This document shows positions 43,687 through 60,659 of a DNA stretch of 62,238 nucleotides, one piece after another. Source of the stretch: an uncultured Rikenella sp. GTDB lineage: Bacteria > Bacteroidota > Bacteroidia > Bacteroidales > VadinHA17. Positions within the stretch are counted from its first letter, which is position 1, and each line of letters opens with the position of its first letter. The position numbers and the translations under genes are program-made. The notes under the pieces are model-generated. The model ran no database searches, was not told the origin of the DNA, and was given only the letters and a program-made list of their open reading frames with translations. The stretch spans positions 25,942 through 88,179 of the forward strand of contig CAYPKP010000006.1 in assembly GCA_964411345.1 (NCBI GenBank). Direction: 5' to 3'.

Positions 43687-43708
43687 GCGGGCAGGGAGGA
43701 GGCAATTG

Positions 43709-44434: not shown

Positions 44435-44445
44435 GTCAGTGGTTG

Positions 44446-44464
44446 TTTGTCAGATCAGGACAAA
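44446..44464. promoter_or_regulatory. Candidate GntR operator directly upstream of gntR
   Basis: TTTGTC-AGATCAG-GACAAA inverted repeat. Confidence 0.45.
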
Positions 44465-44488
44465 GATGTTTTGTCCCGGTCATTATGT

Positions 44489-46388: not shown

Positions 46389-49300
46389 ATGCGAAGATCC
46401 AGTCTCCTCTTTTCTCTCCTCTTATTCCTTGTTGCGCCCGTAATGTTTCAGCCTCTGTCGGGGCAGAAGCCCGGCAGGATGCAGCGAATAGCCGAATCAA
46501 GGCTGAGTGAGTGGGTCACCCCCATCCCGGAGTGGCTTTTCCCGGAAGAGATGAGGATCGATTCCGTGAGTGTTGATGACGGGCAGCGGGAGGTCAGCAT
46601 CTGGCTGCCGGCCGAGGCAGCGCAGAATCCGGTCAGGGAAGAGACTCACGCCCGGCTTGTCAACTCTGTGAGGGAGAGCCTGGGAAGGAGGTTCTCCGGG
46701 TACGGTATCACAGTCCTGTGCGGTGTACAGCCTCTTGAGGAGCTCATACCGAACTACTTCAGGTATGAGCTTCCCCGTGACGCCGGGAGGATACTTCCCG
46801 CACCGGAGTTGAGGCCCCGGCTGGTAGAGCGGATCGGGTCGCCTGAGTCTCCGGAAGGTCTTGACGGCAGGTATATTGCCCTGTGGCACAGTCACGGATA
46901 CTATTTCGACATGACCCTCGACCGCTGGGAGTGGCAGCGTGCGAAGCTCTTCGGCAGTGTGGAGGATCTTTCGGTCATGGCCTACGTAATTCCATACCTT
47001 GTACCCATGCTTGAGAATTCCGGAGCAACGGTATTTCTGCCGCGCGAAAGAGACATACAGGTCAATGAAGTTATCGTTGACAACGACGGTTCTACTGGCA
47101 ACTCCGAGTTTGTATTGCAGGTATCCGAACCTCCTGCTGAGGCGGGATCCGGTTTCACGGTCAGGGATACGCTCTTCAGCGGTGACAATCCCTTCCTCAT
47201 GGGCACTGCCCTGACCATCAGCGACGGCTCAGCGCTGTTCGTTCCCGAGATACCCGAAAGGGGATCATACGGTGTCACGGTCTCCTGGCCGCGTCTCACT
47301 GACGGAGCGGGCAAGGTGCTTTTCAGGGTAGCTCACACCGGCGGGGTGACTGAATTTATTGCAGACCAGTCGGTGGGAGGCGGCACCTGGGTCTGGCTTG
47401 GCTCCTTCATATTCGATAAGGGTCTTGACCGCGACAGAGGCTCTGTCACCATCACCTCTGCCGACGGTTCACCGGTGGCCGTTGATGTTGTCCGTTTCGG
47501 AGGCGGCATGGGCAACGTAGCCCGCCGCCCCTCAGCAACGGTGATAGCCAACCAGTGGTCGCTCAATGCCGGCGAACAGGCTGCTGACGACGAGAGCCAC
47601 GCCTCCGCCGAAAGCTTCAGATGGAAACTGAGCGGCAAGCCGCGGTATCTTGAGGCCGCCCGCTACTGGCTTCAGTTTGCAGGCATGCCTGACACCCTGG
47701 TTTATACGGTCAATCATGGGAGAAACGATTACAATGACGACTACATGTCGCGGTCCGAATGGGTCAACTACCTGCACCGCAAGCCTGACAGTACCGGCGG
47801 CAACGGCATGGGTATCCCCGTGGACCTCTCCTTTGCATTTCATACTGATGCCGGCATCACACCGGATGATTCCATCATCGGCACGCTCGGCATCTATTCA
47901 ACGGCAACCAACGAAGGCAGATTCCCCGACGGCACCAGTCGTCTTGCCAGCCGTGACCTTACTGATATTGTCCAGACCCAGATCGTAGAAGACATATATG
48001 TTATCTTCAATCCCGACTGGACCAGGCGTGCCATGTGGGACCGTTCCTATTATGAGGCACGCAAGCCCGATGTGCCTGCCATGCTCCTGGAACTGCTCTC
48101 TCATCAGAACCTTGCCGACCAGCGTTACGGGTTTGACCCACGCTTTCGCTTCCATGTGAGCCGTGCCGTCTACAAGGGTATCCTCCGCTATCTGGCCACC
48201 GCCTCTGGCACGGAGTATACCGTTCATCCGCTGCCCGTCTCTCACCTGGAGCTTGCTCCCCTGGGCACCAAGAGCATCAGGCTGAAATGGACGCCGGTAA
48301 CTGATCCCCTGGAGTCGACCGCTGACCCGCTCTCATACAAGGTCTACATGGCTGTCGGCGACAACGGCTTTGACAACGGCAGGGAGGTGACCGGCACCAC
48401 CCTTGACATCGAGCTTCCGTCATTCAACATGCTCTACCGGTTCAGGGTCACCGCACTGAATGAAGGGGGAGAGAGCTTCCCCTCGGAGACGCTGTCGACA
48501 GGCTTTGTAGCGGACTCCGGGGAGACCGTGCTTGTTGTCAACGGTTTTGACCGTATCTCCGGTCCCTCGTGGTTTGACCGCGGCGGCATGGGCGGCGTGG
48601 CATGGTGGGATGACCGCGGGGTGGCTGACGGCTACAATTTTTCGAGCATAGGCGACCAGTATGACTTTAACCGCAGGTCGCCCTGGACCGATGATGACAA
48701 TCCGGGATGGGGCGCTTCATGGTCTGACGGCGAGGGAAAGATCATCCCTGGTAACACATTCGACTTTTCTGCGATCCACGGCAGTTCAATCATGGCCGCC
48801 GGCAGGTCGTTCATCTCGGTCAGCGATGAGGTATTCAACAGTGCCGGATTCGATCTCAGACCATACGCTGCCGTTGACCTGCTCTTCGGTGAAGAGAAGA
48901 GCATCCCTTCAGTTTATGATCCGGAAAAGAAGGAGTTTCAGATATACACTCCTGAGTTCGTGCGGAGCCTGGAGAGACTCTCCGAGGCTTCCATGCCACT
49001 GTTCATGTCCGGGGCCTACGTCGGCACCGATCTTGTGATCGCGGCTGACAGTGCCGTCACTGCAAAGGTGATGCAGATCCTTCATTTCAAACCCCGTACC
49101 AACCACGCCGTAAGAACAGGTGAATTCTACGCCACCGACATCGCAGGGCCTGACCTCTCAGGCAGGTTTTCATTCAACACCGGATCCTGTACTGGTATCT
49201 ACGCAGCCGAATCACCCGATGCCATCGAGCCGGCCGACAGGAGATCGCACACAGCATTCCGCTATTCGGAGAACAATACGTCAGCTGCCGTCAGGCATAA

Positions 49301-49409
49301 TGGAGAGGTGAGAACCGTTGTCACCGGCTTCCCGTTTGAAACTGTAACCTCGCAGGAAGAGAGAGACAGTCTGATGAAGCAGATACTGGATTTCATCCTG
49401 AAGAAATAA
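46389..49409 (+). CDS. Multidomain Zn amidase (Amidase_3-like) + golvesin/Xly-CBD-like + fibronectin III protein
   Basis: IALWHSHG, VEDL, FHTDAG, LLELLSHQN; GGTWVWLGSF..AVDVVRFGGG; FN3 KWTP..SYKVY..YRFRVTALNEGGES. Confidence 0.75.
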   Translation: MRRSSLLFSLLLFLVAPVMFQPLSGQKPGRMQRIAESRLSEWVTPIPEWLFPEEMRIDSVSVDDGQREVSIWLPAEAAQNPVREETHARLVNSVRESLGRRFSGYGITVLCGVQPLEELIPNYFRYELPRDAGRILPAPELRPRLVERIGSPESPEGLDGRYIALWHSHGYYFDMTLDRWEWQRAKLFGSVEDLSVMAYVIPYLVPMLENSGATVFLPRERDIQVNEVIVDNDGSTGNSEFVLQVSEPPAEAGSGFTVRDTLFSGDNPFLMGTALTISDGSALFVPEIPERGSYGVTVSWPRLTDGAGKVLFRVAHTGGVTEFIADQSVGGGTWVWLGSFIFDKGLDRDRGSVTITSADGSPVAVDVVRFGGGMGNVARRPSATVIANQWSLNAGEQAADDESHASAESFRWKLSGKPRYLEAARYWLQFAGMPDTLVYTVNHGRNDYNDDYMSRSEWVNYLHRKPDSTGGNGMGIPVDLSFAFHTDAGITPDDSIIGTLGIYSTATNEGRFPDGTSRLASRDLTDIVQTQIVEDIYVIFNPDWTRRAMWDRSYYEARKPDVPAMLLELLSHQNLADQRYGFDPRFRFHVSRAVYKGILRYLATASGTEYTVHPLPVSHLELAPLGTKSIRLKWTPVTDPLESTADPLSYKVYMAVGDNGFDNGREVTGTTLDIELPSFNMLYRFRVTALNEGGESFPSETLSTGFVADSGETVLVVNGFDRISGPSWFDRGGMGGVAWWDDRGVADGYNFSSIGDQYDFNRRSPWTDDDNPGWGASWSDGEGKIIPGNTFDFSAIHGSSIMAAGRSFISVSDEVFNSAGFDLRPYAAVDLLFGEEKSIPSVYDPEKKEFQIYTPEFVRSLERLSEASMPLFMSGAYVGTDLVIAADSAVTAKVMQILHFKPRTNHAVRTGEFYATDIAGPDLSGRFSFNTGSCTGIYAAESPDAIEPADRRSHTAFRYSENNTSAAVRHNGEVRTVVTGFPFETVTSQEERDSLMKQILDFILKK

Positions 49410-49418
49410 TCCGACATC

Positions 49419-50891
49419 ATGGAGAGAAAAATAACATGCTTTTTGCCCTGGTCTGACTCCGGCTCAGTGGCAGCAACAGTAAGATCACTCAGGAGTTCAG
49501 AAGCAGTCAGCAGGATCTTCATCGTAGTACCCCCTGACCATACTGGTGATATCGGGATACAGGAGACACAGATTCTTCGGTCAGCAGGATTTGCATCCAC
49601 CGACGCCCTGAAGAAAATGGCAGCGGTGACTGACACCGATTTTGTATTGATATACAGCAAGGGCTTCCCGCTCGATCCGGGGAGATTTGCCTTCGAGCGG
49701 CTGATACAGGTTTGCGAAGGCACAGGTGCCGGCATGGTCTACTCAGACTACTTCGAGAAAAAGAGTGAGAAGCTCTCACCCCATCCTCTGATAGATTACC
49801 AGGAGGGCAGCCTTCGCGACGACTTCAATTTCGGCTCGGTCATCCTTTACAGTGCCGACGCCTTCAGGAAAGCCTGCAGCGCCATGAACGAAGATTACAG
49901 CTTTGCCGGGCAGTACGATCTGAGGCTCAGGGTCTCGCAGTCCTATCCCGTGGTCCATATCCCGGAGATGCTCTATACAGAGGTGGAGACGGACACCCGC
50001 AGGTCGGGTGAGAAGATGTTTGATTATGTCGATCCGCGCAACAGGGAGGTTCAGAAGGAGATGGAGAGAGCCTGTACGGATCACCTCAGGGAGGTCGGCG
50101 CCTGGCTTGGACCGCAGTTCAGGGAGATGGCATTCGATGATGAGACCTTTGAATACGATGCCTCTGTCATCATTCCTGTGCGAAACAGGGTCAAAACCAT
50201 AGGTGATGCCATCGAATCGGTGCTGAGCCAGAAATCGCACTACAGCTTTAACCTGATACTCGTTGACAACCACTCCACCGACGGTACAACTGACGTTGTC
50301 AGGTCGTTTGCAGGCGACAGCAGGGTGGTGCATATCATACCGGAAAGAGATGATCTGGGGATCGGAGGATGCTGGAACGAGGCTATTTTCAGTGATAAGT
50401 GCGGCAAGTTTGCCATACAGCTTGACAGTGACGACCTTTATATCGACGACTCGGTGGTGACAAGGATCGTTGACGCCTTTCATGAGCAGCAGTGCGGCAT
50501 GGTGGTAGGCTCCTACAGGATGGTCAACTTTGAGCTGAAGGATATCCCTCCGGGGCTTATAGACCACAGGGAGTGGACTCCCGACAACGGCAGGAACAAT
50601 GCGTTGAGGATCAACGGCCTCGGGGCTCCCCGGGCCTTCTACACGCCTCTCCTGCGCAGTGTCAGGGTCCCCAACGTCAGCTACGGCGAAGATTATGCCG
50701 TCGGCCTCGCAATAAGCCGGCACTACAGGATAGGACGGATATATGAACCCCTTTATCTCTGCCGCCGCTGGGATGAAAACTCAGATGCCCTTCTGGATGT
50801 CGGAAGGATGAATGCACATAATCTCTATAAGGACAGGATACGCACGATGGAGCTTCTTGCCAGGAGACGTTTGATCAGCAGCGGAAGGTGA
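49419..50891 (+). CDS. Glycosyltransferase family 2 protein (two GT-A-like domains)
   Basis: SVIIPVRNR, LVDNHSTDGT, QLDSDD, YGEDY; N-domain with VYSDY..PLIDYQ.GSLRDDF. Confidence 0.88.
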   Translation: MERKITCFLPWSDSGSVAATVRSLRSSEAVSRIFIVVPPDHTGDIGIQETQILRSAGFASTDALKKMAAVTDTDFVLIYSKGFPLDPGRFAFERLIQVCEGTGAGMVYSDYFEKKSEKLSPHPLIDYQEGSLRDDFNFGSVILYSADAFRKACSAMNEDYSFAGQYDLRLRVSQSYPVVHIPEMLYTEVETDTRRSGEKMFDYVDPRNREVQKEMERACTDHLREVGAWLGPQFREMAFDDETFEYDASVIIPVRNRVKTIGDAIESVLSQKSHYSFNLILVDNHSTDGTTDVVRSFAGDSRVVHIIPERDDLGIGGCWNEAIFSDKCGKFAIQLDSDDLYIDDSVVTRIVDAFHEQQCGMVVGSYRMVNFELKDIPPGLIDHREWTPDNGRNNALRINGLGAPRAFYTPLLRSVRVPNVSYGEDYAVGLAISRHYRIGRIYEPLYLCRRWDENSDALLDVGRMNAHNLYKDRIRTMELLARRRLISSGR

Positions 50892-51032
50892 AACCGGAAA
50901 GCATAGGCAATAAGGACTGAGGAACATATTCGCCCTGAAAATTATTCGCAGGTAAAACTGAAAACCAGATGCTGGGTAAGCTGAAGAGCAGATTTAAGCT
51001 GAGGAGTATTCACAGGGGAAATTGAAAATCAT

Positions 51033-51971
51033 ATGCACGATCACTCAAATATGGTAAATGATCTCTTCGAGAGTCAGTTCATGGAGTGGCCTCTGGCGCG
51101 CGACAACTATGGTCAGCTTGACGGTGTGAGGGTAAGGAAGATACCTTTCCCGGGCTACGAGATCGCCGTGCAGTTTAATCCCGGGAGGATCGTCTCATCA
51201 GCGGCGAAGGTGGATGCCGGCTCCATCAAAGCGAGACCCTGCTTCCTCTGTGAGGATAACAGGCCGCCGGAGCAGAGGGGAGTGCCCTTTGGCAGCGACT
51301 ACATCATACTGATCAATCCCTTTCCGATATTCAGGCGTCATCTTACCATCGTTAACAGGGCACATACACCGCAGCAGATTGAAGGCAACTTTGCCTCAAT
51401 GCTCTCTCTGGCAGAGGCACTGCCCGATTTTGTCATCTTCTACAACGGCCCGCAATGCGGAGCCTCAGCTCCCGACCACCTCCATTTCCAGGCCGGCAAC
51501 AGGGGTTTTCTGCCGGTGGAGAAAGATTTCGGCAAACCTGACCTCGGCACTGCCGCGGTCTCCTCAGAAGGTGTTGAACTACGTCTGTGGAGCGGCTATG
51601 GCAGGGGGATGCTGACTCTTGCGGGGAGTGACAGCAGGGCTATCGACAATGCCTTTTCCCGTTTTTACGGTACGTTTGCCGCCACACAGCCTGAACGGCC
51701 GGAACCCATGCTTAACATGCTTGCTTACCACTCCGCGGGCAGATGGACAGTGCATATAGTACCCCGAAGGGTTCACAGGCCGTCGTGCTACTTTGCCGCG
51801 GAGCAGGAAAGGATTCTGCTGAGCCCGGCGTCAGTTGACATGGGAGGGGTGTTCATCACCCCCAGGGAAGAGGATTACAACAAGATCACCGCCGCTGATA
51901 TCAGCAGCATCCTCGGAGAGGTATGCCTTAGCGACGGTGAGATGAAATCATTAACGGAAGTACTATTATGA
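51033..51971 (+). CDS. DUF4922 protein (HIT/GalT-like HxHxQ nucleotidyl transferase/phosphorylase)
   Basis: QFNPGRIVSS.AKVD, RPCFLC, NPFPIF..HLTI, FYNGPQCGASAPDHLHFQAG. Confidence 0.82.
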   Translation: MHDHSNMVNDLFESQFMEWPLARDNYGQLDGVRVRKIPFPGYEIAVQFNPGRIVSSAAKVDAGSIKARPCFLCEDNRPPEQRGVPFGSDYIILINPFPIFRRHLTIVNRAHTPQQIEGNFASMLSLAEALPDFVIFYNGPQCGASAPDHLHFQAGNRGFLPVEKDFGKPDLGTAAVSSEGVELRLWSGYGRGMLTLAGSDSRAIDNAFSRFYGTFAATQPERPEPMLNMLAYHSAGRWTVHIVPRRVHRPSCYFAAEQERILLSPASVDMGGVFITPREEDYNKITAADISSILGEVCLSDGEMKSLTEVLL

Positions 51972-53311
51972 AGGAGAGAAGCTTTCCCGAAATAAGCGTG
52001 GGCATAGTGTCAGGCAAGGCACTGACGGTCACTCTCAACGGAGAGTATAATGTCTCAGGGGCTGAGCGAAGCATTCAAGGCCAGTGGACTGCAGCATTCA
52101 GTGAAGGCAGAGTCGTGCTCACAGGTGACGGAGCCCCCGTACAGGCAGGCCGGGAGCTGATACTGGTGCCGGCAGATCACCGGCGCTGCAGCTTCACCCT
52201 CCATGCCGTGACCATAGGCGTAGCCTTTCACTGGGAGCGCAACGAAGACCAGACCTTCGTGGGCAAGCTGAAGTTCATGATCATTGAAGAGCGGGTTACG
52301 GCAGTAAATCTGGTGCCTGTTGAGGATTACCTTGCCAGTGTGATCTCCTCGGAGATGAGTGCCACATCATCGGTGGAGCTGCTGAAGGCGCACGCCGTGA
52401 TATCAAGGAGCTGGCTGCTGGCGCAGATCGACAAAACCGCACGCCTCGAAGCAGGAGGAAAGCGGCATGCTGCAAACCAGGTTACCGCAGGTGAAATCAT
52501 CCGTTGGTATGACCGGGAAGACCACAGGGAGTATGATGTTTGCGCTGATGATCACTGCCAGCGTTACCAGGGGATCACCAGGGCAACAACTCCGGAGGTG
52601 GAGAGCGCTGTGCGGGAGACAGCCGGAGAGGTGCTCATGTCAGGCGATGCACTGTGTGATGCACGTTACTCCAAGTGCTGCGGCGGCATCACTGAACTGT
52701 TTGAAAACGTTTGGGAGCCGGTAAGCCACGACTGTCTGCAGAGCGTCACGGATGCTGTCCGTCCGCCCGAGGGCTTCAACACGGATCTCACCACAGAGGA
52801 GAATGCTGTCAGATGGATAAAAGGTAATCCAGGAGCCTTCTGCAACAGCAATGACAGGGCGGTCCTGTCGCAGGTGCTCAACAGCTATGACCAGGAGACC
52901 AACGACTTCTTCCGTTGGAAGGTGGCATACAGGCAGGAGGAGCTCAGTGCCCTGGTGAGGGAGCGCACCGGCATCGATTTTGGCTTGATAACGGCCATGG
53001 AACCGCTGGAACGCGGCACCTCCGGGCGCATCATAAAACTGAAGATCACGGGTGACAGGAAGAGTATGATAATTGGCAAGGAGCTGGAGATCAGAAAGGC
53101 ACTCTCAACGTCGCATCTTTACAGCTCGGCCTTCTTTGTAGAGACAGAAGATGACGAACAGGGCAGATCCTTTATACTTCACGGCGCCGGATGGGGCCAC
53201 GGGGTGGGACTCTGCCAGATAGGAGCCGCGGTTATGGGCTCTCTGGGCTTCGGGTACACGGAGATCCTCTCGCACTATTTTGTACATTCAGTGCTTCAAA
53301 AGATATACTAA
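51968..53311 (+). CDS. SpoIID/LytB-domain protein (putative lytic transglycosylase)
   Basis: EDYLASVISSEM, KAHAVISRS, DDHCQRYQG, GAGWGHGVGLCQIGA, ILSHYF. Confidence 0.9.
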   Translation: MKERSFPEISVGIVSGKALTVTLNGEYNVSGAERSIQGQWTAAFSEGRVVLTGDGAPVQAGRELILVPADHRRCSFTLHAVTIGVAFHWERNEDQTFVGKLKFMIIEERVTAVNLVPVEDYLASVISSEMSATSSVELLKAHAVISRSWLLAQIDKTARLEAGGKRHAANQVTAGEIIRWYDREDHREYDVCADDHCQRYQGITRATTPEVESAVRETAGEVLMSGDALCDARYSKCCGGITELFENVWEPVSHDCLQSVTDAVRPPEGFNTDLTTEENAVRWIKGNPGAFCNSNDRAVLSQVLNSYDQETNDFFRWKVAYRQEELSALVRERTGIDFGLITAMEPLERGTSGRIIKLKITGDRKSMIIGKELEIRKALSTSHLYSSAFFVETEDDEQGRSFILHGAGWGHGVGLCQIGAAVMGSLGFGYTEILSHYFVHSVLQKIY

Positions 53312-53312
53312 G

Positions 53313-55781
53313 ATGAAAAGCATTATTTCACTTGCATTGCTGTTATGCCTGCCTTTTTTTACCGCAGAGGCAGACTCATGGATAAGGATCAACCAGCTGG
53401 GATACCTTCCGCAGTCGGTGAAGGTGGCAGTATACATCTCGCAGGAGCCGGGGGCCAAACCTACATTCACGGTCTGTGATGCCCTGACGGGAAAGAGGGT
53501 ATTCACCGGCAAGGCATCCCTATATGACGGTTCGGCATGGGGTATGGGTGCCGCAGCCAGGCTTGACTTCTCGGCACTGACATCTCCGGGAGGCTATTAT
53601 ATCAGGTACGGAAACACCATCTCGGAGACATTTCGCATAGGCCATGGGGTCTATGACGGTACGGCTGACTTCATTCTGAACTATATCAGGCAGCAGCGTT
53701 GCGGGTACAATCCCTTCCTGGCCGACACATGTCATGCCCATGACGGGGTCATTGTGGATCATCCTGCCCTTACAGGAACGGTCATTGATGTCAGGGGAGG
53801 GTATCATGATGCCAGTGATCACCTGAGATACACAGCCACCACATCCACTTCGGTCTACCAGATGATGTTCGCCTGGGAGAGATCGCCGGAGATCTACGGC
53901 GACAGCCATGATGCTGCCGGTATGCCCGGCAGCAACGGTATTCCCGATATCCTTGATGAGGCAAGGTGGGGCCTGGAGTGGCTGCTGAAGATGAACCCCG
54001 ACAGCGGGATGATGTTCAACCAGGTGGCTGACGACCGTGACCACCGGGGATTCAGGCTGCCGAACCTCGACAGGGCCGACTACGGGCTGGGGCCCTACAG
54101 GCCGGTTTACTTTGTCACAGGCAAGCCGCAGGGACTGGCCAGGTTCAAGAACCGCACCGAGGGAGTAGCCTCCACGGCAGGCAAATTTGCCTCGGTCTTT
54201 GCCATGGGGGCACGCATCTTTGCCGGCAGTGATCCCTCATTTGCCGCTCTAATGAAGTCAAGGGCTGCCGATGCCCTGGAGTATGCCCGTACTGACCCCG
54301 GTGCCACACAGACAGCCTGCAACGTCTCTCCCTATTTCTATGAGGAGGACAACTATGTTGATGACATGCAGCTGGCAGCATGGGAACTGTGGTCCCTCAC
54401 CGGTGATCAGGAGCTCCTGGCCGAGGCCGACTACTGGGGGACGCTCGAACCATTCACTCCGTGGATAGAGAAAGACACGGCACGCCATTACCAGTTTTAC
54501 CCGTTTGTTAACCTGGGGCACGCCCGGCTCGCCATGTCAGACACGCAGTATTCCCAAAAATATATTGACTTCATGCGGAAGGGGCTCGACCTTATCAACG
54601 CCCGCGATCAGCATGATGTCTTCCAGGTGAAGATACCCTTTGTGTGGTGCTCCAACAACTATGTGGCCGCAGCCCTGACACAGTGCAGGCTCTACCGCGA
54701 AATTACGGGAGACGGCAGGTTTGATCATATGGAGGCGGCGATGCGCGACTGGCTCTTCGGGTGCAACCCGTGGGGGACATCGATGATATGCGGGCTGCCG
54801 TCCGGAGGCGACTACCCCCTATATCCCCACTCGGCCGTTACAGTATACCTTGGCCAGACGACAACGGGAGGACTGGTTGACGGGCCGGTATACAGGGGCA
54901 TCTATGAGAGCCGCAAAGGGATCACCTTGCTAAATCCGGATCCCTATGCCGCCTTCCAGAACGGTCCTGTAGTCTATCACGATGACATCGGCGACTACAG
55001 CACGAACGAGCCTACGCTCGACGGTACTGCCAGCCTCAGCTATTACCTCTCCACGCTGGAGAAGGAGGGAAGGCAGGGTCGCGACCTGGCTTCGGGCGAT
55101 ATCCGGGATGATCACGGCGCCCTCATCAGGAAGAGCTCCGGAGAAAAGGCAATATACCTGCTCTTCTCCGCTGATGAGTATGGAGAAGGGTTTGATCACA
55201 TACTCAATGTGCTTGACCGCAAGATGATCAAAGGCTCTTTCTTTCTGACAGGCAATTTTCTCAGGAACAAACAGTTTGCGTCTGTAATTAAACGGCTGAT
55301 TTCCGGTGGTCACTACCTCGGGCCACACTCGGACGGACACCTTCTGTATATACCCTGGGAGAACCGCGATACCCTGCTGGTCACCAAGGATCAGTTCAAC
55401 CAGGATATGAGAAAGAACATCATTGAGCTGGGACGGGCAGGAGTCAGGGAGAAACCCCGCTGGTTCCTGGCGCCCTATGAATGGTACAACAGTGCCATCA
55501 GCCGGTGGAGTGAAGAGCTGGGGCTTACACTGGTGAACATCACTCCGGGCACCGGTACAGGCGCAGACTACACCACACCCGGGATGGCGAACTACAGGTC
55601 ATCGGAGTTTCTGATTGAGAGGCTTGCCAGGTTTGAGGAGAACTCACCCCTGGGACTGAACGGGGCGCTGCTGCTGATCCACCCGGGCACTGATCCGGCG
55701 CGGGAGGACAAGCTCTACCTGAAGCTGGAAGAGCTGATTGAATATTATCAGGAAAAAGGTTACACATTCAAAAAGTTATAA
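53313..55781 (+). CDS. GH9 (Ig-like + catalytic) fused to a C-terminal CE4 polysaccharide deacetylase
   Basis: IRINQLGY, DVRGGYHDASD, STNEPTLDG; then LLFSADE, GPHSDGHL, FLAPYE, LLIHPG; start at 53313. Confidence 0.82.
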   Translation: MKSIISLALLLCLPFFTAEADSWIRINQLGYLPQSVKVAVYISQEPGAKPTFTVCDALTGKRVFTGKASLYDGSAWGMGAAARLDFSALTSPGGYYIRYGNTISETFRIGHGVYDGTADFILNYIRQQRCGYNPFLADTCHAHDGVIVDHPALTGTVIDVRGGYHDASDHLRYTATTSTSVYQMMFAWERSPEIYGDSHDAAGMPGSNGIPDILDEARWGLEWLLKMNPDSGMMFNQVADDRDHRGFRLPNLDRADYGLGPYRPVYFVTGKPQGLARFKNRTEGVASTAGKFASVFAMGARIFAGSDPSFAALMKSRAADALEYARTDPGATQTACNVSPYFYEEDNYVDDMQLAAWELWSLTGDQELLAEADYWGTLEPFTPWIEKDTARHYQFYPFVNLGHARLAMSDTQYSQKYIDFMRKGLDLINARDQHDVFQVKIPFVWCSNNYVAAALTQCRLYREITGDGRFDHMEAAMRDWLFGCNPWGTSMICGLPSGGDYPLYPHSAVTVYLGQTTTGGLVDGPVYRGIYESRKGITLLNPDPYAAFQNGPVVYHDDIGDYSTNEPTLDGTASLSYYLSTLEKEGRQGRDLASGDIRDDHGALIRKSSGEKAIYLLFSADEYGEGFDHILNVLDRKMIKGSFFLTGNFLRNKQFASVIKRLISGGHYLGPHSDGHLLYIPWENRDTLLVTKDQFNQDMRKNIIELGRAGVREKPRWFLAPYEWYNSAISRWSEELGLTLVNITPGTGTGADYTTPGMANYRSSEFLIERLARFEENSPLGLNGALLLIHPGTDPAREDKLYLKLEELIEYYQEKGYTFKKL

Positions 55782-55783
55782 GC

Positions 55784-57454
55784 ATGGCAGGCAAGAATGC
55801 CAACCGCTCCCCGTGGGCATGGGTTCCTTCGCTCTATTTCTACCAGGGTATTCCCTACAGCATAGTGATGACCACCTCCGGGCTCATTTACAAGACCATG
55901 GGTGTCTCTGTGGCTTCGTTTGCCTTCTGGACGAGCATCCTCTATCTGCCCTGGGCGCTGAAGCCACTCTGGAGTCCCTATATAGATGTCGTATCGACAA
56001 AGCGCAACTGGGTGGTATGGACACAGCTGCTGATAGCGGCCACCTTCATCGGCGCAGGCCTGGCGATGCAGCTGCCGATGTTCTATCCCATCACCATAGC
56101 GATCTTTGCCATCATCGCTATCTCCTCTGCGAGCCATGATATTGCCGCCGACGGTTTCTACATGTATGCCCTCAACCAGCACAAGCAGGCCTATTTTGTA
56201 GGTATACGAAGCACCTTCTACCGTTTTGCCATGCTCACGGCGCTGGGCCTTATCCCGCTGGTTGCCGGGATAGTACAGAAGAACACCGGTCTTGAGCCTC
56301 TCGCTTTTGAGGCGAGATCAGTAAGCCTGGCCGACTATCAGCCTTTTGATCCTGCAACCATAGAGATCAAGGAAGAACCGGGAGAACCCCGGCTGCTTCT
56401 GTACCCTGAAGAGATTACCGTGCCGATGTGGGAGGCAGGGGTCTCCGAGCTCGACTCGGCAGTTGTCTTCATAGCCCTCTCCGCTCCCCCGGAAGAGGGG
56501 GAGACCATCGTTGTCAACATCGCCCGCGAAGGCGGAAGCAAGGATATCGATATACCCAGGAACCAGGTAAGCAGGTTCGAGTTCACCGGCAGCAACTGGG
56601 ACGTTCCTGCCGCCGTTTCGCTGAAAACGCACCATAACCTCAAGGAGGCCACAACGGCGGAGTTTGGCATCACCGCCGGGAATATAGCCTTCAGCTGGAC
56701 AGTCTCGCTGGGGGTGCTGGGGCTGCTGCTCCTCCTGCTGGCGCTCTACAACCGCTATATTCTTCCCCGGCCTGCGGAGAATGACATCCGTGAGAAGGTG
56801 AGCCTGAAGGTCTTTGTTGAGGTCTTCGTCTCCTTCTTCACCAAGCCTGGTGTTGTCGCCGCCCTGGCCTTCTTCCTGCTTTACAGGCTTGGCGAGGCAC
56901 AGCTGGTGAAGATTGCCACACCCTTCCTGGTCGATTCCAGAAGCATGGGAGGCATAGGTCTTACCTCGGCACAGTACGGCATCATCTACGGCACCCTGGG
57001 CATGGTCTGCCTGACCATAGGGGGCATCCTGGGCGGCATCCTGGCGGCGAAATACGGACTGAAGAAGCTGATCTGGTACATGGCTGTGGCAATGAACCTT
57101 CCCAACCTTGTATATGTCTATCTTGCCTATGCTCAGCCGATGCCCGGCGACCTGGGTGTCTATCTCTCCGTCGCCACCGAGCAGCTGGGTTACGGTTTCG
57201 GGTTCACGGCCTATTCTCTCTTCATGCTCTATTATGTGGGCGAGAGCAAATACAAGACCGCCGAGTTCGCCATAGGTACGTCACTGATGGCCCTGGGAAT
57301 GATGCTGCCGGGCATGGTGTCGGGAAAGATATTCGAGGCGATAGGCTATGAACACTTCTTTATCTGGGTGTTGATATGCACCATTCCGGGGATGCTCTCA
57401 ATACTGTTCCTGAAGATCGATCCCGGGTTTGGACTCAAGAAGAACGAAGGATAA
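55784..57454 (+). CDS. ampG: AmpG-family muropeptide MFS permease with ~129-aa insertion
   Basis: PWAWVPSLYF.QGIPY, LPWALKPLWSP, SASHDIAADGFY, GIRSTFYR, YRLGEAQL, EQLGYGFG, MMLPGMVSG. Confidence 0.88.
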   Translation: MAGKNANRSPWAWVPSLYFYQGIPYSIVMTTSGLIYKTMGVSVASFAFWTSILYLPWALKPLWSPYIDVVSTKRNWVVWTQLLIAATFIGAGLAMQLPMFYPITIAIFAIIAISSASHDIAADGFYMYALNQHKQAYFVGIRSTFYRFAMLTALGLIPLVAGIVQKNTGLEPLAFEARSVSLADYQPFDPATIEIKEEPGEPRLLLYPEEITVPMWEAGVSELDSAVVFIALSAPPEEGETIVVNIAREGGSKDIDIPRNQVSRFEFTGSNWDVPAAVSLKTHHNLKEATTAEFGITAGNIAFSWTVSLGVLGLLLLLLALYNRYILPRPAENDIREKVSLKVFVEVFVSFFTKPGVVAALAFFLLYRLGEAQLVKIATPFLVDSRSMGGIGLTSAQYGIIYGTLGMVCLTIGGILGGILAAKYGLKKLIWYMAVAMNLPNLVYVYLAYAQPMPGDLGVYLSVATEQLGYGFGFTAYSLFMLYYVGESKYKTAEFAIGTSLMALGMMLPGMVSGKIFEAIGYEHFFIWVLICTIPGMLSILFLKIDPGFGLKKNEG

Positions 57455-57471
57455 CAGTATCGGGGAGCGAC

Positions 57472-60400
57472 ATGGTAACGGAAGAGAAGTTCAGAAAGCT
57501 TGCGGAAGAGATCACCGGTGATCTCTATACTGACATTACACAGCGTATACTCTATGCCACGGATGCCTCGGCATACAGGGAGGTGCCCCTGGCAGTGACC
57601 AGGCCTGCCGGCCGTGATGATATAAAAAAGATAATTGCCTTTGCCCGTCGCGAGGGCACATCGGTCATCCCCCGCGGGGCCGGCACCTCGCTGGCAGGCC
57701 AGGTGGTGGGGCCGGGGATCGTCATGGACATCTCAAAACATCTGAACCGTATCCTTGAGTTCAACCCGGGGGAGCGCTGGGTTACGGTGGAACCCGGCGT
57801 GGTACTGGCGGAGCTGAACCGGTATGTGGCTCCTCACCGCCTGCAGTTCGGTCCCGAGACATCCACCGCAAACCGCTGCTGCATGGGAGGCATGCTGGGC
57901 AACAACTCATGCGGTGCTCACTCCATCATCCATGGCAGCGTGAGAGACCACATCCTCGAGGTTGATGCCGTTCTGTCCGACGGGTCAGAGGTCCATTTTG
58001 GCGCTCTCACCAGGGAGGAGTTCAACGCAAAGTGCGACGGTGACCCCGGACTGCTGGAGACGCAGATTTACAGAAATCTCCGAGACATCCTCTCCGATCA
58101 GCGAAATGCGGAGGAGATAGAGAGGGAGTTCCCTCATCCGGAGCTGCGGCGGCGAAACAACGGTTATGCCCTCGACATAATGCTGAGGACGGATCCATTT
58201 ACCGGTAACGGTGAGAAGATAAACGTTTGCAGGCTCCTGGCAGGTTCGGAAGGTACCCTGGCCTTCACCACGGTCATGAAGCTGAACCTGGTACCAGTCA
58301 CTGAACAGAAGACCGGGTTGCTCTGCGCCCACTTCAACAGCCTGCAGGATGCCGTCAGGGCTAACATTATCGTGCTTAAGCACTCGCCTGCCGCCGTGGA
58401 GCTGATAGATGACTATATCGTCAACTGCACCGGCGACAACATTGAGCAGAGCAAAAACCGCTTCTTCATCAAGGGCGATCCGAAGGCAATACTGCTGATT
58501 GAGATCATCCGGCCGACTTTTCAGGAGATAGAGAAGACAGCTTCGGCTATGGAGAGGGATATGATTGCTGCAGGCTACGGCTACCATTTTCCGCTTTATA
58601 CCGGTGCCGAAGAGATGGCGAGGGTGTGGGAGCTGCGCAGGGCCGGCCTGGGGGTGCTGCTCAATATCCCCGGCAGGAAGAAGAGCGTTCAGGTCATAGA
58701 GGATACCGCCGTGCTGCCGGAGCTCTTTCCCGGTTACCTGGAGGATGTCACTACCGTACTTGAGAAATACGGGCTGAGCTGCGCATACTACGCACATATT
58801 GCCACCGGAGAGCTGCATCTCAGTCCCCTGCTTGACCTGAAAGACCCTGCCGACATAGAGATATTTCACGGTCTGGCCAGGGATATAGCCCTTCTTGTAA
58901 AGAAGTACCGCGGTTCGCTCAGCGGCGAGCACGGCGACGGCAGGCTGAGGGGTGAGTTTATCCCCCTGATGCTCGGGGAGCATAACTACGAGCTGCTGAA
59001 GGCGATAAAGAAAACGTGGGATCCGGCTTCTGTATTCAATCCGGGAAAAATTACCGACACTCCCCCCATAACCGGCAACCTGAGGTATCCGGCAGGAGTC
59101 AGGATGAAGGTGCCGGGGATAGTCTTTGACTTTCCGGAGGAGGAGGGGCTGCTCTATGCCACGGAGAAGTGCAGCGGCTCGGCCGACTGCCGCAAGAGCG
59201 CCCTTGTGGGAGGCGCCATGTGCCCGACTTTCATGGCAACGGGCGACGAGGATAAGTCGACACGCGCCAGGGCAAATATCCTGAGGGAGTTCCTGACGAG
59301 ATCGGAAAAAACGAACCGGTTTGACCATGAGGAGATATACCGGGTGATGGATCTCTGCCTCTCATGCAAGGCATGCAAGGCCGAGTGTCCTTCAAACGTC
59401 GATGTGGCCAAGCTCAAGGCCGAGTTCCTGCAGCATTATTATGATATCCACCACGTGCCTTTCCGTGCATGGCTCATAGCATGGCTGCCACGGCTGTACA
59501 TCCCCGGCATGATGGTTCGTCCGCTTACCAACCTGGTGACCTCAACGGCTCTCTTCAAGCGCATCATTGGCTTCTCGGTGAAACGACCCATCCCTGCCCT
59601 CTCGCCCGTCACGTTAAGAGCATGGCAGAGACGTCACATCAGAAATAGCGTCGGATTTAATGGCAGTGCGGATGGAGCCGGGAGAAAATCGGTCACTGCT
59701 GCTACCGTCGGTTCCGGCACTGAAGATCACCTGCTGGGCAGCAGAGACCATCTCATATCGAAAGGCACCGTCTGCCTCTTTGCCGATGAGTTCACCAACT
59801 ACAACGAGAGCGACATTGGCATCAAGGCGGTGATGCTGCTTGAGAGACTGGGATACAATGTCATCATCCCGCGCCACAGGGAGAGCGGACGCACCTTCCT
59901 CTCCAAGGGACTGATACGGTCGGCACGCAGGCTGGCCCTGAAAAATATACTGATGCTGAAGGATGTTGTCTCCGAAGAACGGCCGCTGATAGGCATCGAG
60001 CCGTCAGCGCTCCTGACCTTCCGGGACGAGTATCCTGACATGGCAGGAGAGTCACTGGCTGAAGATGCGCGTAACATTGCGCGCAACGCACTCCTCTTTG
60101 AGGAATTCATCTCCCGCGAGGCGGACAGGGGTAATATCACGCCGGACCAGTTTACGGACCGGTCCCTGAAGATACTGCTGCACGGCCACTGCCAGCAGAA
60201 GGCGGTGGCATCGACTGCTCCCACCGTCACGATGCTGTCGCTGCCCCGCAACTACAGCGTTGAGGAGATAAATGACGGCTGCTGCGGCATGGCAGGAGCC
60301 TTCGGCTACGAAAAGGAGCACTATGACCTGAGCATGAAGATAGGCGAAATGGTGCTCTTTCCGGCTGTGCGGGCTGCAGAGGCTGAGACTGTAATAGCTG

Positions 60401-60501
60401 CACCGGGCACATCCTGCCGGCACCACATCGCTGACGGCACGGGACGCCGGGCGCTGCATCCGGTTGAGATAATGTATGACGCTCTTGAGAAACAGGATTG
60501 A
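57472..60501 (+). CDS. FAD-linked oxidase + [4Fe-4S] + CCG protein (YdiJ/GlcD-like D-2-hydroxyacid dehydrogenase)
   Basis: YATDASAY, PRGAGTSLAGQ, GGMLGNNSCG, GSEGTL, SGEHGDG, CSGSADC, CLSCKACKAECP, HGHCQQKA, CCGMAGAFG. Confidence 0.9.
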   Translation: MVTEEKFRKLAEEITGDLYTDITQRILYATDASAYREVPLAVTRPAGRDDIKKIIAFARREGTSVIPRGAGTSLAGQVVGPGIVMDISKHLNRILEFNPGERWVTVEPGVVLAELNRYVAPHRLQFGPETSTANRCCMGGMLGNNSCGAHSIIHGSVRDHILEVDAVLSDGSEVHFGALTREEFNAKCDGDPGLLETQIYRNLRDILSDQRNAEEIEREFPHPELRRRNNGYALDIMLRTDPFTGNGEKINVCRLLAGSEGTLAFTTVMKLNLVPVTEQKTGLLCAHFNSLQDAVRANIIVLKHSPAAVELIDDYIVNCTGDNIEQSKNRFFIKGDPKAILLIEIIRPTFQEIEKTASAMERDMIAAGYGYHFPLYTGAEEMARVWELRRAGLGVLLNIPGRKKSVQVIEDTAVLPELFPGYLEDVTTVLEKYGLSCAYYAHIATGELHLSPLLDLKDPADIEIFHGLARDIALLVKKYRGSLSGEHGDGRLRGEFIPLMLGEHNYELLKAIKKTWDPASVFNPGKITDTPPITGNLRYPAGVRMKVPGIVFDFPEEEGLLYATEKCSGSADCRKSALVGGAMCPTFMATGDEDKSTRARANILREFLTRSEKTNRFDHEEIYRVMDLCLSCKACKAECPSNVDVAKLKAEFLQHYYDIHHVPFRAWLIAWLPRLYIPGMMVRPLTNLVTSTALFKRIIGFSVKRPIPALSPVTLRAWQRRHIRNSVGFNGSADGAGRKSVTAATVGSGTEDHLLGSRDHLISKGTVCLFADEFTNYNESDIGIKAVMLLERLGYNVIIPRHRESGRTFLSKGLIRSARRLALKNILMLKDVVSEERPLIGIEPSALLTFRDEYPDMAGESLAEDARNIARNALLFEEFISREADRGNITPDQFTDRSLKILLHGHCQQKAVASTAPTVTMLSLPRNYSVEEINDGCCGMAGAFGYEKEHYDLSMKIGEMVLFPAVRAAEAETVIAAPGTSCRHHIADGTGRRALHPVEIMYDALEKQD

Positions 60502-60659
60502 CATGATTAATTGAGGATTGCAGCTTCCCGGAAAAGAGTCTGCATAAACAAACAGAGGGGATCGATGAAACCTGCCTGAGAGTAACCTCACAGGATCGAA
60601 TGATTATAATTTTTCATTCAGGTTGCATTCGAACAATGAAACAAAAACAAACCAATAGT

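What the first reader, a model, noticed from the sequence alone, without database searches (positions are those of the whole stretch)
56291..56677. AmpG permease with a ~129-aa periplasmic Ig/Calx-beta-like insertion
Seen: between predicted TM5 and TM6 (aa ~170-298) lies a hydrophilic beta-rich segment including VFIALSAPP...TIVVNI...FEFTGSNWDVPAAVSL, which resembles the FTxxNWxxPQTVTV motif of Calx-beta-like adhesin repeats. The protein is 556 aa, longer than a plain 12-TM AmpG core. Inference: a built-in substrate-capture or scaffolding domain that could dock the periplasmic hydrolases and channel muropeptides; this is rare for an MFS.
Basis: partly seen in the sequence, partly recalled or inferred. 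Interest (0 to 1): 0.65.

Follow-up and report, generated by a model that had tools for sequence, protein, structure and literature searches.

The report
AmpG permease with periplasmic Ig-like domain
The cell-wall-fragment importer AmpG of this uncultured Bacteroidales bacterium has a folded, conserved Ig-like domain in an outward-facing loop; the literature I could search does not describe it for this phylum, and it may dock the enzymes that make the transporter's substrate.

Summary
ORF 55784-57454 (+) encodes a 556-aa AmpG-family MFS permease. Residues 170-298 (nt 56291-56677) are an extra segment between TM5 and TM6 that E. coli-type AmpG lacks.

- **Folded and periplasmic.** AlphaFold2 models it as an eight-strand beta-sandwich (pLDDT 92). 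MFS topology and charge (pI 4.3) place it in the periplasm.
- **Conserved.** It has no indels in 120 homologues, and dN/dS is 0.09-0.13. It occurs in at least 103 species genomes, always in a peptidoglycan-salvage operon.
- **Wider family.** Gut Bacteroides and Muribaculaceae AmpG carry a ~200-aa version at the same site, in the operon layout reported for Tannerella forsythia.
- **Origin.** Residues 201-299 are homologous to the "LTFTxxNWxxPQTVT" repeat of giant surface proteins (hhalign 98.5%, E 4e-15). That repeat has no Pfam family and is only weakly LapA/Big_9/Ig-like.
- **Not Calx-beta.** Neither Pfam nor Foldseek supports that label.

Function is inferred, not shown. The closest precedent is Acinetobacter baumannii AmpG1 (JBC 2026). 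Its unrelated Ig-like periplasmic domain sits in a different loop and binds the lytic transglycosylase Slt. By analogy I favour docking of an exported glycan-processing enzyme (NamZ, GH9-CE4). It cannot be the SpoIID/LytB-like neighbour, which has no export signal. I class this as a new variant of a known kind.

The parts
55784..57454 (+). AmpG-family MFS permease, 556 aa, 12 TM helices plus the insert
   Evidence: Best NCBIfam hit is TIGR00901 AmpG family (E 3e-44, 151 bits, below the 350-bit cutoff). Best PDB sequence and Foldseek hits are the AmpG cryo-EM structures 8zgz, 9c3f and 9j9z. AF2 gives pLDDT 82 and pTM 0.79.
56192..56287 (+). TM5 (aa 137-168), running from cytoplasm to periplasm
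   Evidence: Helix 137-168 in the AF2 model. It aligns with 8zgz up to residue 163.
56285..56299 (+). Junction motif T-G-L-E-P (aa 168-172): the TM5 helix ends and the first strand begins one residue later, with no long linker
   Evidence: T168, G169 and L170 are invariant. The motif is also present in Bacteroides P0362. Strand 170-180 starts one residue after the helix ends at 168.
56291..56677 (+). Periplasmic beta-sandwich insert as reported (aa 170-298)
   Evidence: AF2 alone gives pLDDT 91.9 and 8 strands. No indels in 120 homologues. dN/dS 0.09-0.13. pI 4.3, with 23 D+E against 9 K+R over aa 169-300.
56291..56383 (+). Variable N-terminal part of the insert (aa 170-200): first strand plus short helical turns. 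About 68 residues longer in Bacteroides and Muribaculaceae AmpG.
   Evidence: Mean top-residue frequency is 0.63 here against 0.77 for aa 201-298. The pairwise alignment with P0362 places the extra residues here.
56384..56680 (+). Ig-like core (aa 201-299), homologous to the 'LTFTxxNWxxPQTVT' repeat of giant surface proteins
   Evidence: hhalign probability 98.5%, E 3.9e-15, 88 aligned columns. Invariant residues include R264, F267, N271 and W272.
56675..56758 (+). Junction motif A-G-N-I-A-F-S-W and TM6 (aa 298-325), running from periplasm to cytoplasm
   Evidence: A298, G299, F303, S304 and W305 are invariant. Helix 301-325. The K/R-rich central loop follows.
53313..55781 (+). GH9 + CE4 (polysaccharide deacetylase) fusion with a signal peptide. 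Its stop codon is 2 nt before the ampG start. Candidate periplasmic partner.
   Evidence: Pfam Glyco_hydro_9, CelD_N and Polysacc_deac_1. Signal-peptide-like N-terminus MKSIISLALLLCLPFFTAEA. Present upstream of ampG in 56 of 80 related loci.
51968..53311 (+). SpoIID/LytB-like protein without a signal peptide, so predicted cytoplasmic
   Evidence: Pfam SpoIID. The N-terminus MKERSFPEISVGIVSGK has no hydrophobic leader. Syntenic in 69 of 80 loci.
46389..51971 (+). Upstream operon genes: exported 1006-aa Golvesin_C protein, GT2 (490 aa) and DUF4922 (312 aa)
   Evidence: Pfam assignments. Synteny. Matches the T. forsythia Tanf_08345-08355 layout (PMC5388701).

Best explanation
What the tools show: this is the Bacteroidales form of the muropeptide or disaccharide permease AmpG. 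Into the periplasmic TM5-TM6 loop of its N-lobe it has acquired one copy of an Ig-like beta-sandwich, from the same repeat family that builds giant surface adhesin-like proteins. The domain's first and last strands begin and end within a residue or two of TM5 and TM6, through conserved TGLEP and AGNIAFSW junctions. It is therefore mounted on the outer face of the transporter and presumably moves with the N-lobe. It is under purifying selection and is ancestral to a large clade. The short form is about 130 aa, as here. The long form, about 200 aa, occurs in Bacteroides and Muribaculaceae, and probably in the experimentally studied T. forsythia AmpG.

What is inferred: the domain is a protein-docking platform. 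It holds an exported peptidoglycan-fragment-producing enzyme next to the permease entrance, so that disaccharide products are imported before they diffuse away. Candidates are the exo-muramidase NamZ, encoded beside or near ampG in both subfamilies, and here the GH9-CE4 enzyme encoded immediately upstream. This would parallel the unrelated Ig-like domain of Acinetobacter baumannii AmpG1, which binds Slt.
For: Identity of the carrier:
- The best family and structure hits are AmpG.
- Seven of the eight functional residues named in PMC12214514 are kept: K60, D119, D123, Y146, R147, E371 and E466 (alignment, invariance).
- The operon is orthologous to the T. forsythia ampG operon (PMC5388701).

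The domain is real:
- pLDDT is 92.
- There are no indels, and dN/dS is 0.09-0.13.
- It is found in 103 species genomes.

Periplasmic side:
- Five helices precede it. Motif A (D68...K73-R74) lies in the TM2-3 loop, as in 8zgz.
- K/R residues sit on the odd (cytoplasmic) loops, and the insert is acidic.

Origin:
- hhalign 98.5%, E 4e-15 against the repeats of giant proteins.
- One of these, P0123, ends in a C-terminal region that resembles an autotransporter beta-barrel on reading the sequence (not tested). P0136 starts with a lipoprotein-like N-terminus.

Docking idea:
- AmpG1's periplasmic Ig-like domain binds Slt with Kd about 6 nM, supported by crosslinking and two-hybrid assays (PMC13507758).
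- The PepT1/2 Ig-like domains bind trypsin (PMC4597091).
- Exported enzymes are encoded next to ampG: GH9-CE4 in 56/80 loci and NamZ in 5/5 long-form loci. NamZ hits also lie in the downstream flank of 43 of the 80 short-form loci.
Against:
- The core residues conserved in both subfamilies are largely the fold determinants shared with the adhesin repeats. Only R264 and E266 stand out as AmpG-specific surface positions.
- GH9-CE4 is missing from 24/80 short-form loci and from all long-form loci, so it cannot be the universal partner.
- The near-absence of a linker would suit an intramolecular or gating role equally well.
- The adhesin repeats it derives from are usually structural spacers.
- The AmpG1 domain is in another loop (TM11-12). 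No AmpG1-like protein appeared in the phmmer search, so the analogy rests on function, not ancestry.
Confidence: 0.45

Rival explanations
1. Intramolecular role. The domain is a fixed cap on the N-lobe. It stabilises the transporter, shapes or gates the periplasmic entrance (for example by touching the conserved, lengthened TM7-TM8 loop DSRSxGGIGLT), or mediates dimerisation. No separate enzyme partner is involved.
For: Strands begin and end within a residue or two of TM5 and TM6, and the junction motifs are invariant. Full-length pTM is 0.79, which suggests a defined orientation. The domain is kept whatever enzymes are adjacent. The TM7-8 periplasmic loop is 5 residues longer than in 8zgz and has invariant D384, R386, G390 and G392.
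Against: Insert-less AmpG proteins such as E. coli's work without any such cap. The N-terminal half of the insert varies by about 70 residues between subfamilies, which is odd for a precise gate. I had no model coordinates with which to check contacts.
Confidence: 0.25
2. Direct ligand capture. The domain acts like a carbohydrate-binding module. It binds peptidoglycan strands or released disaccharides and muropeptides and feeds them to the outward-open cavity, or it anchors the permease under the sacculus.
For: There is a conserved aromatic at position 216 within the AmpG-specific loop VPxYxxGxSxLDS of the short form. T. forsythia needs AmpG for growth on intact foreign peptidoglycan (PMC7670621).
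Against: There is no hit to any CBM, LysM, SPOR or PG-binding family. The loop with the aromatic is not conserved in the long form. The domain is strongly acidic (pI 4.3). Its relatives are repeats of the kind that usually serve as structural spacers.
Confidence: 0.2
3. Neutral relic. The segment is a recently inserted piece of an adhesin gene with no function, or a cytoplasmic or disordered loop.
For: It is homologous to a repeat that is abundant in other genes. No curated family covers it.
Against: dN/dS is about 0.1, with 15 invariant residues and no indels in 120 homologues. It is present in at least 103 species and, in a longer form, across gut Bacteroidales. pLDDT is 92. The topology is periplasmic.
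Confidence: 0.03

Closest known systems
Acinetobacter baumannii AmpG1 with its periplasmic Ig-like domain (PPD) (Kim et al., J Biol Chem 2026, PMC13507758)
   Same: An AmpG-family permease carries a folded Ig-like domain in a periplasmic loop. The proposed and partly demonstrated role is to recruit the enzyme that makes the transporter's substrate (Slt), so as to channel it.
   Different: The PPD is about 196 aa and lies between TM11 and TM12 of a 14-TM AmpG, in the C-bundle. It is joined by a ~10-aa linker and is reported as restricted to Acinetobacter. Here the domain is about 130 aa and lies between TM5 and TM6 of a 12-TM AmpG, in the N-lobe, with almost no linker, in another phylum. No AmpG1-like protein appeared in the insert's phmmer search. 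This looks like an independent acquisition. I could not align the two sequences directly.
Tannerella forsythia AmpG (Tanf_08365) and Bacteroides/Muribaculaceae AmpG, e.g. B. cellulosilyticus WP_195352779.1
   Same: These are orthologues by synteny: Golvesin_C-GT2-DUF4922-SpoIID-AmpG. The B. cellulosilyticus protein is 40% identical overall. The Bacteroides and Muribaculaceae proteins have an insert at the same TM5-TM6 site with the same RFEF..NW..P core and GNI junction. T. forsythia AmpG is the functionally tested member (PMC5388701, PMC7670621).
   Different: Their insert is about 200 aa, with an extra, partly helical and charged N-terminal section. NamZ follows ampG directly, and there is no GH9-CE4 gene. 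The papers on T. forsythia AmpG that I read do not mention any insert. I infer, but did not verify, that the T. forsythia protein carries it.
Canonical AmpG (E. coli or Yokenella regensburgei; PDB 9c3f, 8zgz, 9j9z)
   Same: The MFS fold, motif A, and the substrate and proton residues are shared: K62/D125/D129/Y152/R153/D238/E326 correspond to K60/D119/D123/Y146/R147/E371/E466.
   Different: Canonical AmpG has a short TM5-TM6 loop and two extra C-terminal helices, which are absent here. The substrate-binding R365 corresponds to an invariant Met (M506) here.
Mammalian PepT1/PepT2 extracellular domain (Beale et al. 2015, PMC4597091)
   Same: An MFS transporter carries Ig-like domains in an outward-facing loop, and these bind the enzyme (trypsin) that produces the substrate.
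   Different: These are eukaryotic POT-family proteins with two tandem Ig-like domains between TM9 and TM10. They are unrelated in sequence.
'LTFTxxNWxxPQTVT' ~100-aa repeats of giant bacterial surface proteins (e.g. P0123, 2550 aa, 18 copies); weakest links to Pfam LapA (PF20579) and Big_9 (PF17963), and to PDB 6v3p
   Same: The repeat is homologous to insert residues 201-299 (hhalign 98.5%). The strand order and the F-x-x-x-N-W core motif are shared.
   Different: The repeats occur in long tandem arrays. They carry an acidic D-x-D cluster after the NW strand, which looks like a Ca-binding motif (my reading, not tested). The insert has an invariant N285 at the first Asp position. The insert is a single copy with an extra N-terminal strand and an added VPxYxxG loop. 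The repeat has no curated Pfam family.

Membership tests
AmpG muropeptide permease family (TC 2.A.1.25; NCBIfam TIGR00901) | Sequence match to the family model | tested here: inconclusive
   TIGR00901 is the best hit (E 3.1e-44), but its 151 bits are below the 350-bit trusted cutoff. The match is split in two by the insert. The Bacteroides AmpG P0362 behaves the same way, at 169 bits.
AmpG muropeptide permease family (TC 2.A.1.25; NCBIfam TIGR00901) | MFS fold closest to solved AmpG structures | tested here: met
   The top five Foldseek PDB hits are all AmpG: 8zgz, 9j9z, 9c3f, 8zbb and 8zke (E 3e-11 to 6e-9). phmmer against PDB returns only AmpG chains.
AmpG muropeptide permease family (TC 2.A.1.25; NCBIfam TIGR00901) | Substrate and proton residues K62, D125, D129, Y152, R153, D238, E326, R365 (numbering of PMC12214514) | tested here: inconclusive
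   Seven of eight are kept: K60, D119, D123, Y146, R147, E371 (D to E, tolerated in the paper) and E466. All are invariant in 121 sequences. R365 aligns to an invariant M506.
AmpG muropeptide permease family (TC 2.A.1.25; NCBIfam TIGR00901) | Transports GlcNAc-(anh)MurNAc(-peptides) | not testable with these tools
   Inferred from the orthologous operon of T. forsythia, whose AmpG was tested genetically (PMC5388701, PMC7670621).
Calx-beta domain (Pfam PF03160) | Match to the Calx-beta profile | tested here: not met
   The insert has no Pfam hit at E<=10. Calx-beta is not among the 25 listed families of 45 that the 36 sampled repeats match at E<=1. Only two marginal phmmer hits, P0213 and P0240, carry a Calx-beta domain.
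Calx-beta domain (Pfam PF03160) | Structural similarity to solved Calx-beta domains | tested here: not met
   Foldseek against PDB finds no hit with E<0.08 and TM-scores no higher than 0.36. There is no NCX or integrin-beta4 Calx-beta chain in the top 50.
Bacterial Ig-like repeats of giant adhesins (LapA PF20579 / Big_9 PF17963 type) | Profile-level homology to such repeats | tested here: met
   hhalign of the insert alignment against an alignment of 78 repeats gives probability 98.5%, E 3.9e-15 and 88 columns. This shows homology to the uncurated repeat, not to the two Pfam models themselves.
Bacterial Ig-like repeats of giant adhesins (LapA PF20579 / Big_9 PF17963 type) | Match to the curated Pfam models | tested here: inconclusive
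   The insert itself has no hit. Of 36 repeats, 7 hit LapA (best 3.3e-5), 5 hit Big_9 and 3 hit Ig_3. The best PDB match by sequence is 6v3p at E 0.0017.
AmpG1-type enzyme-docking periplasmic domain (A. baumannii) | Ig-like domain in a periplasmic loop of an AmpG | tested here: met
   The loop is different, however: TM5-6 here against TM11-12 in AmpG1 (PMC13507758).
AmpG1-type enzyme-docking periplasmic domain (A. baumannii) | Binds a periplasmic PG hydrolase | not testable with these tools
It needs AF3 multimer prediction or a pull-down.
AmpG1-type enzyme-docking periplasmic domain (A. baumannii) | Sequence homology to the AmpG1 PPD | not tested
No single-stretch hit of about 730-750 aa appeared among the 118 phmmer hits, which argues indirectly against homology.

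The most novel reading that the evidence does not exclude
AmpG permeases have acquired Ig-like periplasmic domains at least twice, independently: in the TM11-12 loop in Acinetobacter and in the TM5-6 loop in Bacteroidota. Both serve the same purpose, which is to tether the glycan-cutting enzyme to the importer. In Bacteroidales, including human gut Bacteroides and oral T. forsythia, the domain would dock the exo-muramidase NamZ, and GH9-CE4 where present. This would form a 'cut-and-import' complex for scavenging other bacteria's cell walls. The lineage-specific N-terminal half of the insert would set partner specificity.
Probability: 0.3. Interest if true: 0.7.

Novelty: new variant of a known kind. 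Interest (0 to 1): 0.55.

Why it matters
AmpG is the gateway for peptidoglycan recycling and, in T. forsythia, for the MurNAc scavenging the organism depends on. A 2026 paper presented a periplasmic Ig-like domain in A. baumannii AmpG1 as a genus-specific device for channelling substrate from a lytic transglycosylase.

This analysis shows that a different Ig-like domain, in a different loop, is the norm across Bacteroidales AmpG, including abundant gut species. It is already present in thousands of deposited sequences that are annotated simply as 'MFS transporter' or 'AmpG'.

If it is also a docking site, enzyme-transporter coupling would be a recurrent solution in cell-wall salvage. It would also give a handle on how gut and oral Bacteroidota harvest foreign peptidoglycan. 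The idea can be tested directly in T. forsythia or B. thetaiotaomicron, which are genetically tractable. Separately, the analysis defines an uncurated ~100-aa repeat family of giant surface proteins.

Tried and rejected
- **Calx-beta assignment.** Rejected by Pfam and Foldseek.
- **Structural classification of the insert.** Foldseek against PDB and BFVD gave no significant neighbour. The best were a siphovirus tail protein (TMq 0.46, E 4e-3) and WSSV VP26/VP37. The fold could not be assigned to a solved family; small beta-sandwiches are hard for this method.
- **Circular permutation.** I tested whether strand 170-180 replaces the last strand of the repeat. Moving it to the C-terminus did not raise the hhalign score (85.6, against 85.2 for the core and 88.5 for a control). 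No support.
- **PDB sequence search with the insert profile.** Only noise.
- **Co-variation of insert type with the neighbouring exported enzyme.** Not clean. NamZ is adjacent in 5/5 long-form loci, but NamZ hits also lie downstream on the opposite strand in 43 of the 80 short-form loci.
- **Raw phmmer list as evidence of homology.** Treated with caution, because repeat-summed scores produced clear false positives: P0156 (plant PPR/DYW) and P0227 (HA repeats). I rely on the hhalign result instead.
- **Verifying that T. forsythia AmpG itself has the insert.** Its length is not given in the papers, and no supplementary text is held.
Full report
**1. The observation**

ORF 55784-57454 (+) encodes a 556-aa protein.

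Its best curated-family match is the AmpG family TIGR00901 (E 3e-44). The match is split into two stretches and falls below the trusted cutoff. phmmer against all PDB chains returns only AmpG cryo-EM structures. The alignment to 8zgz covers residues 17-157 and 317-543, so about 160 residues here correspond to about 20 in canonical AmpG.

AlphaFold2 on a 121-sequence alignment gives pLDDT 82 and pTM 0.79. The model has helices 10-39, 43-63, 74-94, 100-133 and 137-168, then eight strands between 170 and 298, then helix 301-325 and six more TM helices. The five best Foldseek hits in PDB for the whole model are AmpG structures.

**2. Is the insert real, folded and periplasmic?**

- *Conservation.* All of the 120 best homologues are 552-565 aa long. 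Across the insert they show no gaps, a mean top-residue frequency of 0.74 (0.88 in the membrane parts) and 15 invariant positions, including R264, F267, N271 and W272.
- *Selection.* Against the two closest genomes, where dS is unsaturated, dN/dS is 0.09-0.13 for the insert and 0.026 for the TM core.
- *Fold.* Modelled alone with 37 sequences, the insert reaches pLDDT 91.9.
- *Topology.* The insert follows the fifth helix. Motif A (D68...K73-R74) sits in the TM2-3 loop as in 8zgz. K/R residues cluster on the N-terminus and the TM4-5, TM6-7, TM8-9 and TM10-11 loops and the C-terminus. The insert has 23 D+E against 9 K+R, with pI 4.3. This puts it in the periplasm.
- *Composition.* GC content shows no foreign signature.

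**3. Distribution**

A pattern scan of one genome per species (GTDB) found 103 species encoding the insert. The 80 best are all Bacteroidales-type MAGs, labelled Rikenellaceae, Prolixibacteraceae or Mariniphaga. In these loci the gene order GT2-DUF4922-SpoIID-(GH9-CE4)-AmpG is conserved, with SpoIID in 69/80 and GH9-CE4 in 56/80.

The phmmer search of the insert against 1.8 billion representatives also found AmpG-like proteins with a longer insertion. Following these up gave more than 8000 proteins of 615-663 aa. They include Bacteroides cellulosilyticus WP_195352779.1 and Muribaculaceae proteins that NCBI names 'AmpG family muropeptide MFS transporter'.

The Bacteroides protein is 40% identical to ours. 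Its insert is at the same site. It shares the TGLEP junction, the RFEF..NW..P strand and the GNI-F-W junction, and it has about 68 extra residues in the N-terminal half.

Five long-form loci all read Golvesin_C-GT2-DUF4922-SpoIID-AmpG-NamZ-FAD oxidase...MurK-MurQ. This is the layout published for the T. forsythia ampG operon (PMC5388701). That AmpG is reported to be 79% identical to the B. thetaiotaomicron protein. It therefore very probably carries the long insert, though I could not verify this.

A 702-aa AmpG-like protein from an unassigned contig, sitting next to rplM/rpsI, also has the insert. Notes from other windows of this scan report the same short and long inserts in other genomes. 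I treated these as leads only.

**4. What the domain is**

Neither Pfam nor NCBIfam hits the insert at E<=10.

The phmmer search matched residues ~50-114 of the insert to tandem repeats in giant proteins, for example 18 stretches in a 2550-aa protein and 30 stretches in a 5677-aa protein. Summed repeat scores can mislead, and two hits are plainly false: a plant PPR/DYW protein and an HA-repeat protein.

I therefore aligned one repeat from each of 78 proteins and compared profiles. hhalign gives probability 98.5%, E 3.9e-15 and 88 columns, covering AmpG residues 201-299. The repeat consensus is L.V.EG.T....V.L...P...VTV.V.R..GD.D..V.....LTFT..NWN.PQTVT..AA.D.D...G.A.

The repeat has no curated family, however. 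Individual repeats hit only LapA (7/36), Big_9 (5/36) and Ig_3 weakly. Calx-beta is not among the families listed, and the nearest solved sequence is 6v3p at E 0.0017. Foldseek with the isolated domain finds nothing significant in PDB or BFVD. 'Ig-like beta-sandwich of an adhesin-repeat family' is justified. 'Calx-beta' is not.

Relative to the repeats, the AmpG copy has three differences:
- It has lost the acidic D-x-D cluster; N285 is invariant at the first Asp position.
- It has gained a VPxYxxGxS loop.
- It has AmpG-specific conserved surface residues R264 and E266 on the FxF strand.

A circular-permutation origin for the first strand found no support.

**5. How it probably works**

The following is established: a folded, selected domain is mounted, with almost no linker, on TM5/TM6 at the periplasmic face of a peptidoglycan-fragment importer. 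Its function is inferred.

The literature search found one directly relevant precedent, Kim et al. 2026 (PMC13507758). A. baumannii AmpG1 has a ~196-aa Ig-like periplasmic domain between TM11 and TM12. It binds the lytic transglycosylase Slt (MST Kd about 6 nM, supported by crosslinking and two-hybrid assays). The authors propose that it channels anhydromuropeptides, call it genus-specific, and draw the parallel with PepT1/2 (PMC4597091).

The Bacteroidales domain lies in another loop and another lobe. No AmpG1-like protein appeared among the phmmer hits. I read this as an independent acquisition, and I adopt the same mechanism as the leading hypothesis (confidence 0.45).

Candidate partners must be exported:
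- The SpoIID/LytB-like neighbour, GT2 and DUF4922 have no signal peptides.
- GH9-CE4 has a signal peptide and its stop codon is 2 nt before the ampG start. It is absent from 24/80 short-form and 5/5 long-form loci.
- NamZ has a signal or lipoprotein leader. It is adjacent in every long-form locus, and NamZ hits lie downstream in 43 of the 80 short-form loci. That makes it the best universal candidate.

The rivals are an intramolecular cap, gate or dimerisation element (0.25) and direct glycan capture (0.2). A neutral relic is effectively excluded.

**6. Comparison and novelty**

The MFS core passes most AmpG tests. Seven of the eight functional residues from PMC12214514 are conserved. The substrate-binding R365 is an invariant Met here, which may relate to the different substrate range reported for T. 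forsythia AmpG (PMC7670621, PMC12214514).

The papers on T. forsythia AmpG that I read, and full-text searches pairing 'AmpG' with 'periplasmic domain' plus 'Bacteroidetes', and with 'Ig-like', turned up no description of this domain in Bacteroidota. The 2025 structural paper modelled T. forsythia AmpG with AlphaFold2, but its text comments only on the absence of extra helices.

The feature is thus present in thousands of database entries but, as far as I could find, undescribed. Its general kind, an AmpG with a periplasmic Ig-like domain, was published in 2026 for another phylum. I rate it a new variant of a known kind, with interest 0.55.

Noticed in passing
window 57299-57301 (codon for M506 of AmpG): The substrate-binding Arg365 of canonical AmpG (PMC12214514) aligns to Met506. 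This Met is invariant in all 121 aligned Bacteroidales sequences and also present in Bacteroides P0362. The other seven key residues are conserved. It may underlie a different substrate preference.
   Followed up: partly
window 51968-53311: The SpoIID/LytB-like protein has no signal peptide or TM segment. It sits with the leaderless GT2 and DUF4922 proteins, so the trio is predicted to be cytoplasmic. That is odd for a peptidoglycan-cleaving enzyme family. An earlier follow-up note (e1-2325041) made the same point for another genome.
   Followed up: partly
window 53313-55781: This is a GH9 + CE4 fusion with a signal peptide, and its stop codon is 2 nt before the ampG start. It is an optional operon member: present in 56/80 short-insert loci and absent from all 5 long-insert (Bacteroides-type) loci.
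   Followed up: partly
window 60600-62237 (runs off the window end): A long NagB-like protein carries the GGIGPDGHIAFN motif. NCBIfam matches 'glucosamine-6-phosphate deaminase-like protein' only below cutoff, and there is no Pfam hit at 1e-5. It is conserved downstream of ampG in 58/80 loci.
   Followed up: partly
window 57376-60501: The FAD-linked oxidase/4Fe-4S ORF, read from its first ATG, overlaps the ampG 3' end by 79 nt. An internal Met (MVTEEKF, about nt 57472) 18 nt after the ampG stop is a more likely start. Homologues of this gene follow NamZ in the Bacteroides-type loci.
   Followed up: no
proteins P0123, P0124, P0136 and about 75 others: A ~100-aa repeat with consensus ...LTFTxxNWxxPQTVTxxAAxDxD... 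builds giant surface proteins of up to 7018 aa. One has a C-terminal region that looks like an autotransporter barrel, and others have a lipoprotein start or a dockerin. No individually significant Pfam domain covers the repeat, so it appears to be an uncurated family.
   Followed up: partly
one search hit list (P0156, P0227): The phmmer whole-sequence E-values of 3e-8 and 4e-4 for a plant PPR/DYW protein and an HA-repeat protein are artefacts of summing many weak matches over tandem repeats. This is a caution for reading such lists.
   Followed up: yes
window 40871-46184, minus strand: Divergently transcribed from the ampG operon are a MurK-like kinase (286 aa), MurQ (SIS etherase), a GntR/FCD regulator, an exported GH18 and an exported beta-lactamase-family protein. 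This looks like a second peptidoglycan or amino-sugar salvage unit with its own regulator.
   Followed up: no
L086 228-2336 (protein P0220): A 702-aa AmpG-like protein on an unassigned metagenome contig carries the same TM5-6 insert plus a second ~100-aa insertion after TM6. It lies beside rplM/rpsI, not in a salvage operon.
   Followed up: partly
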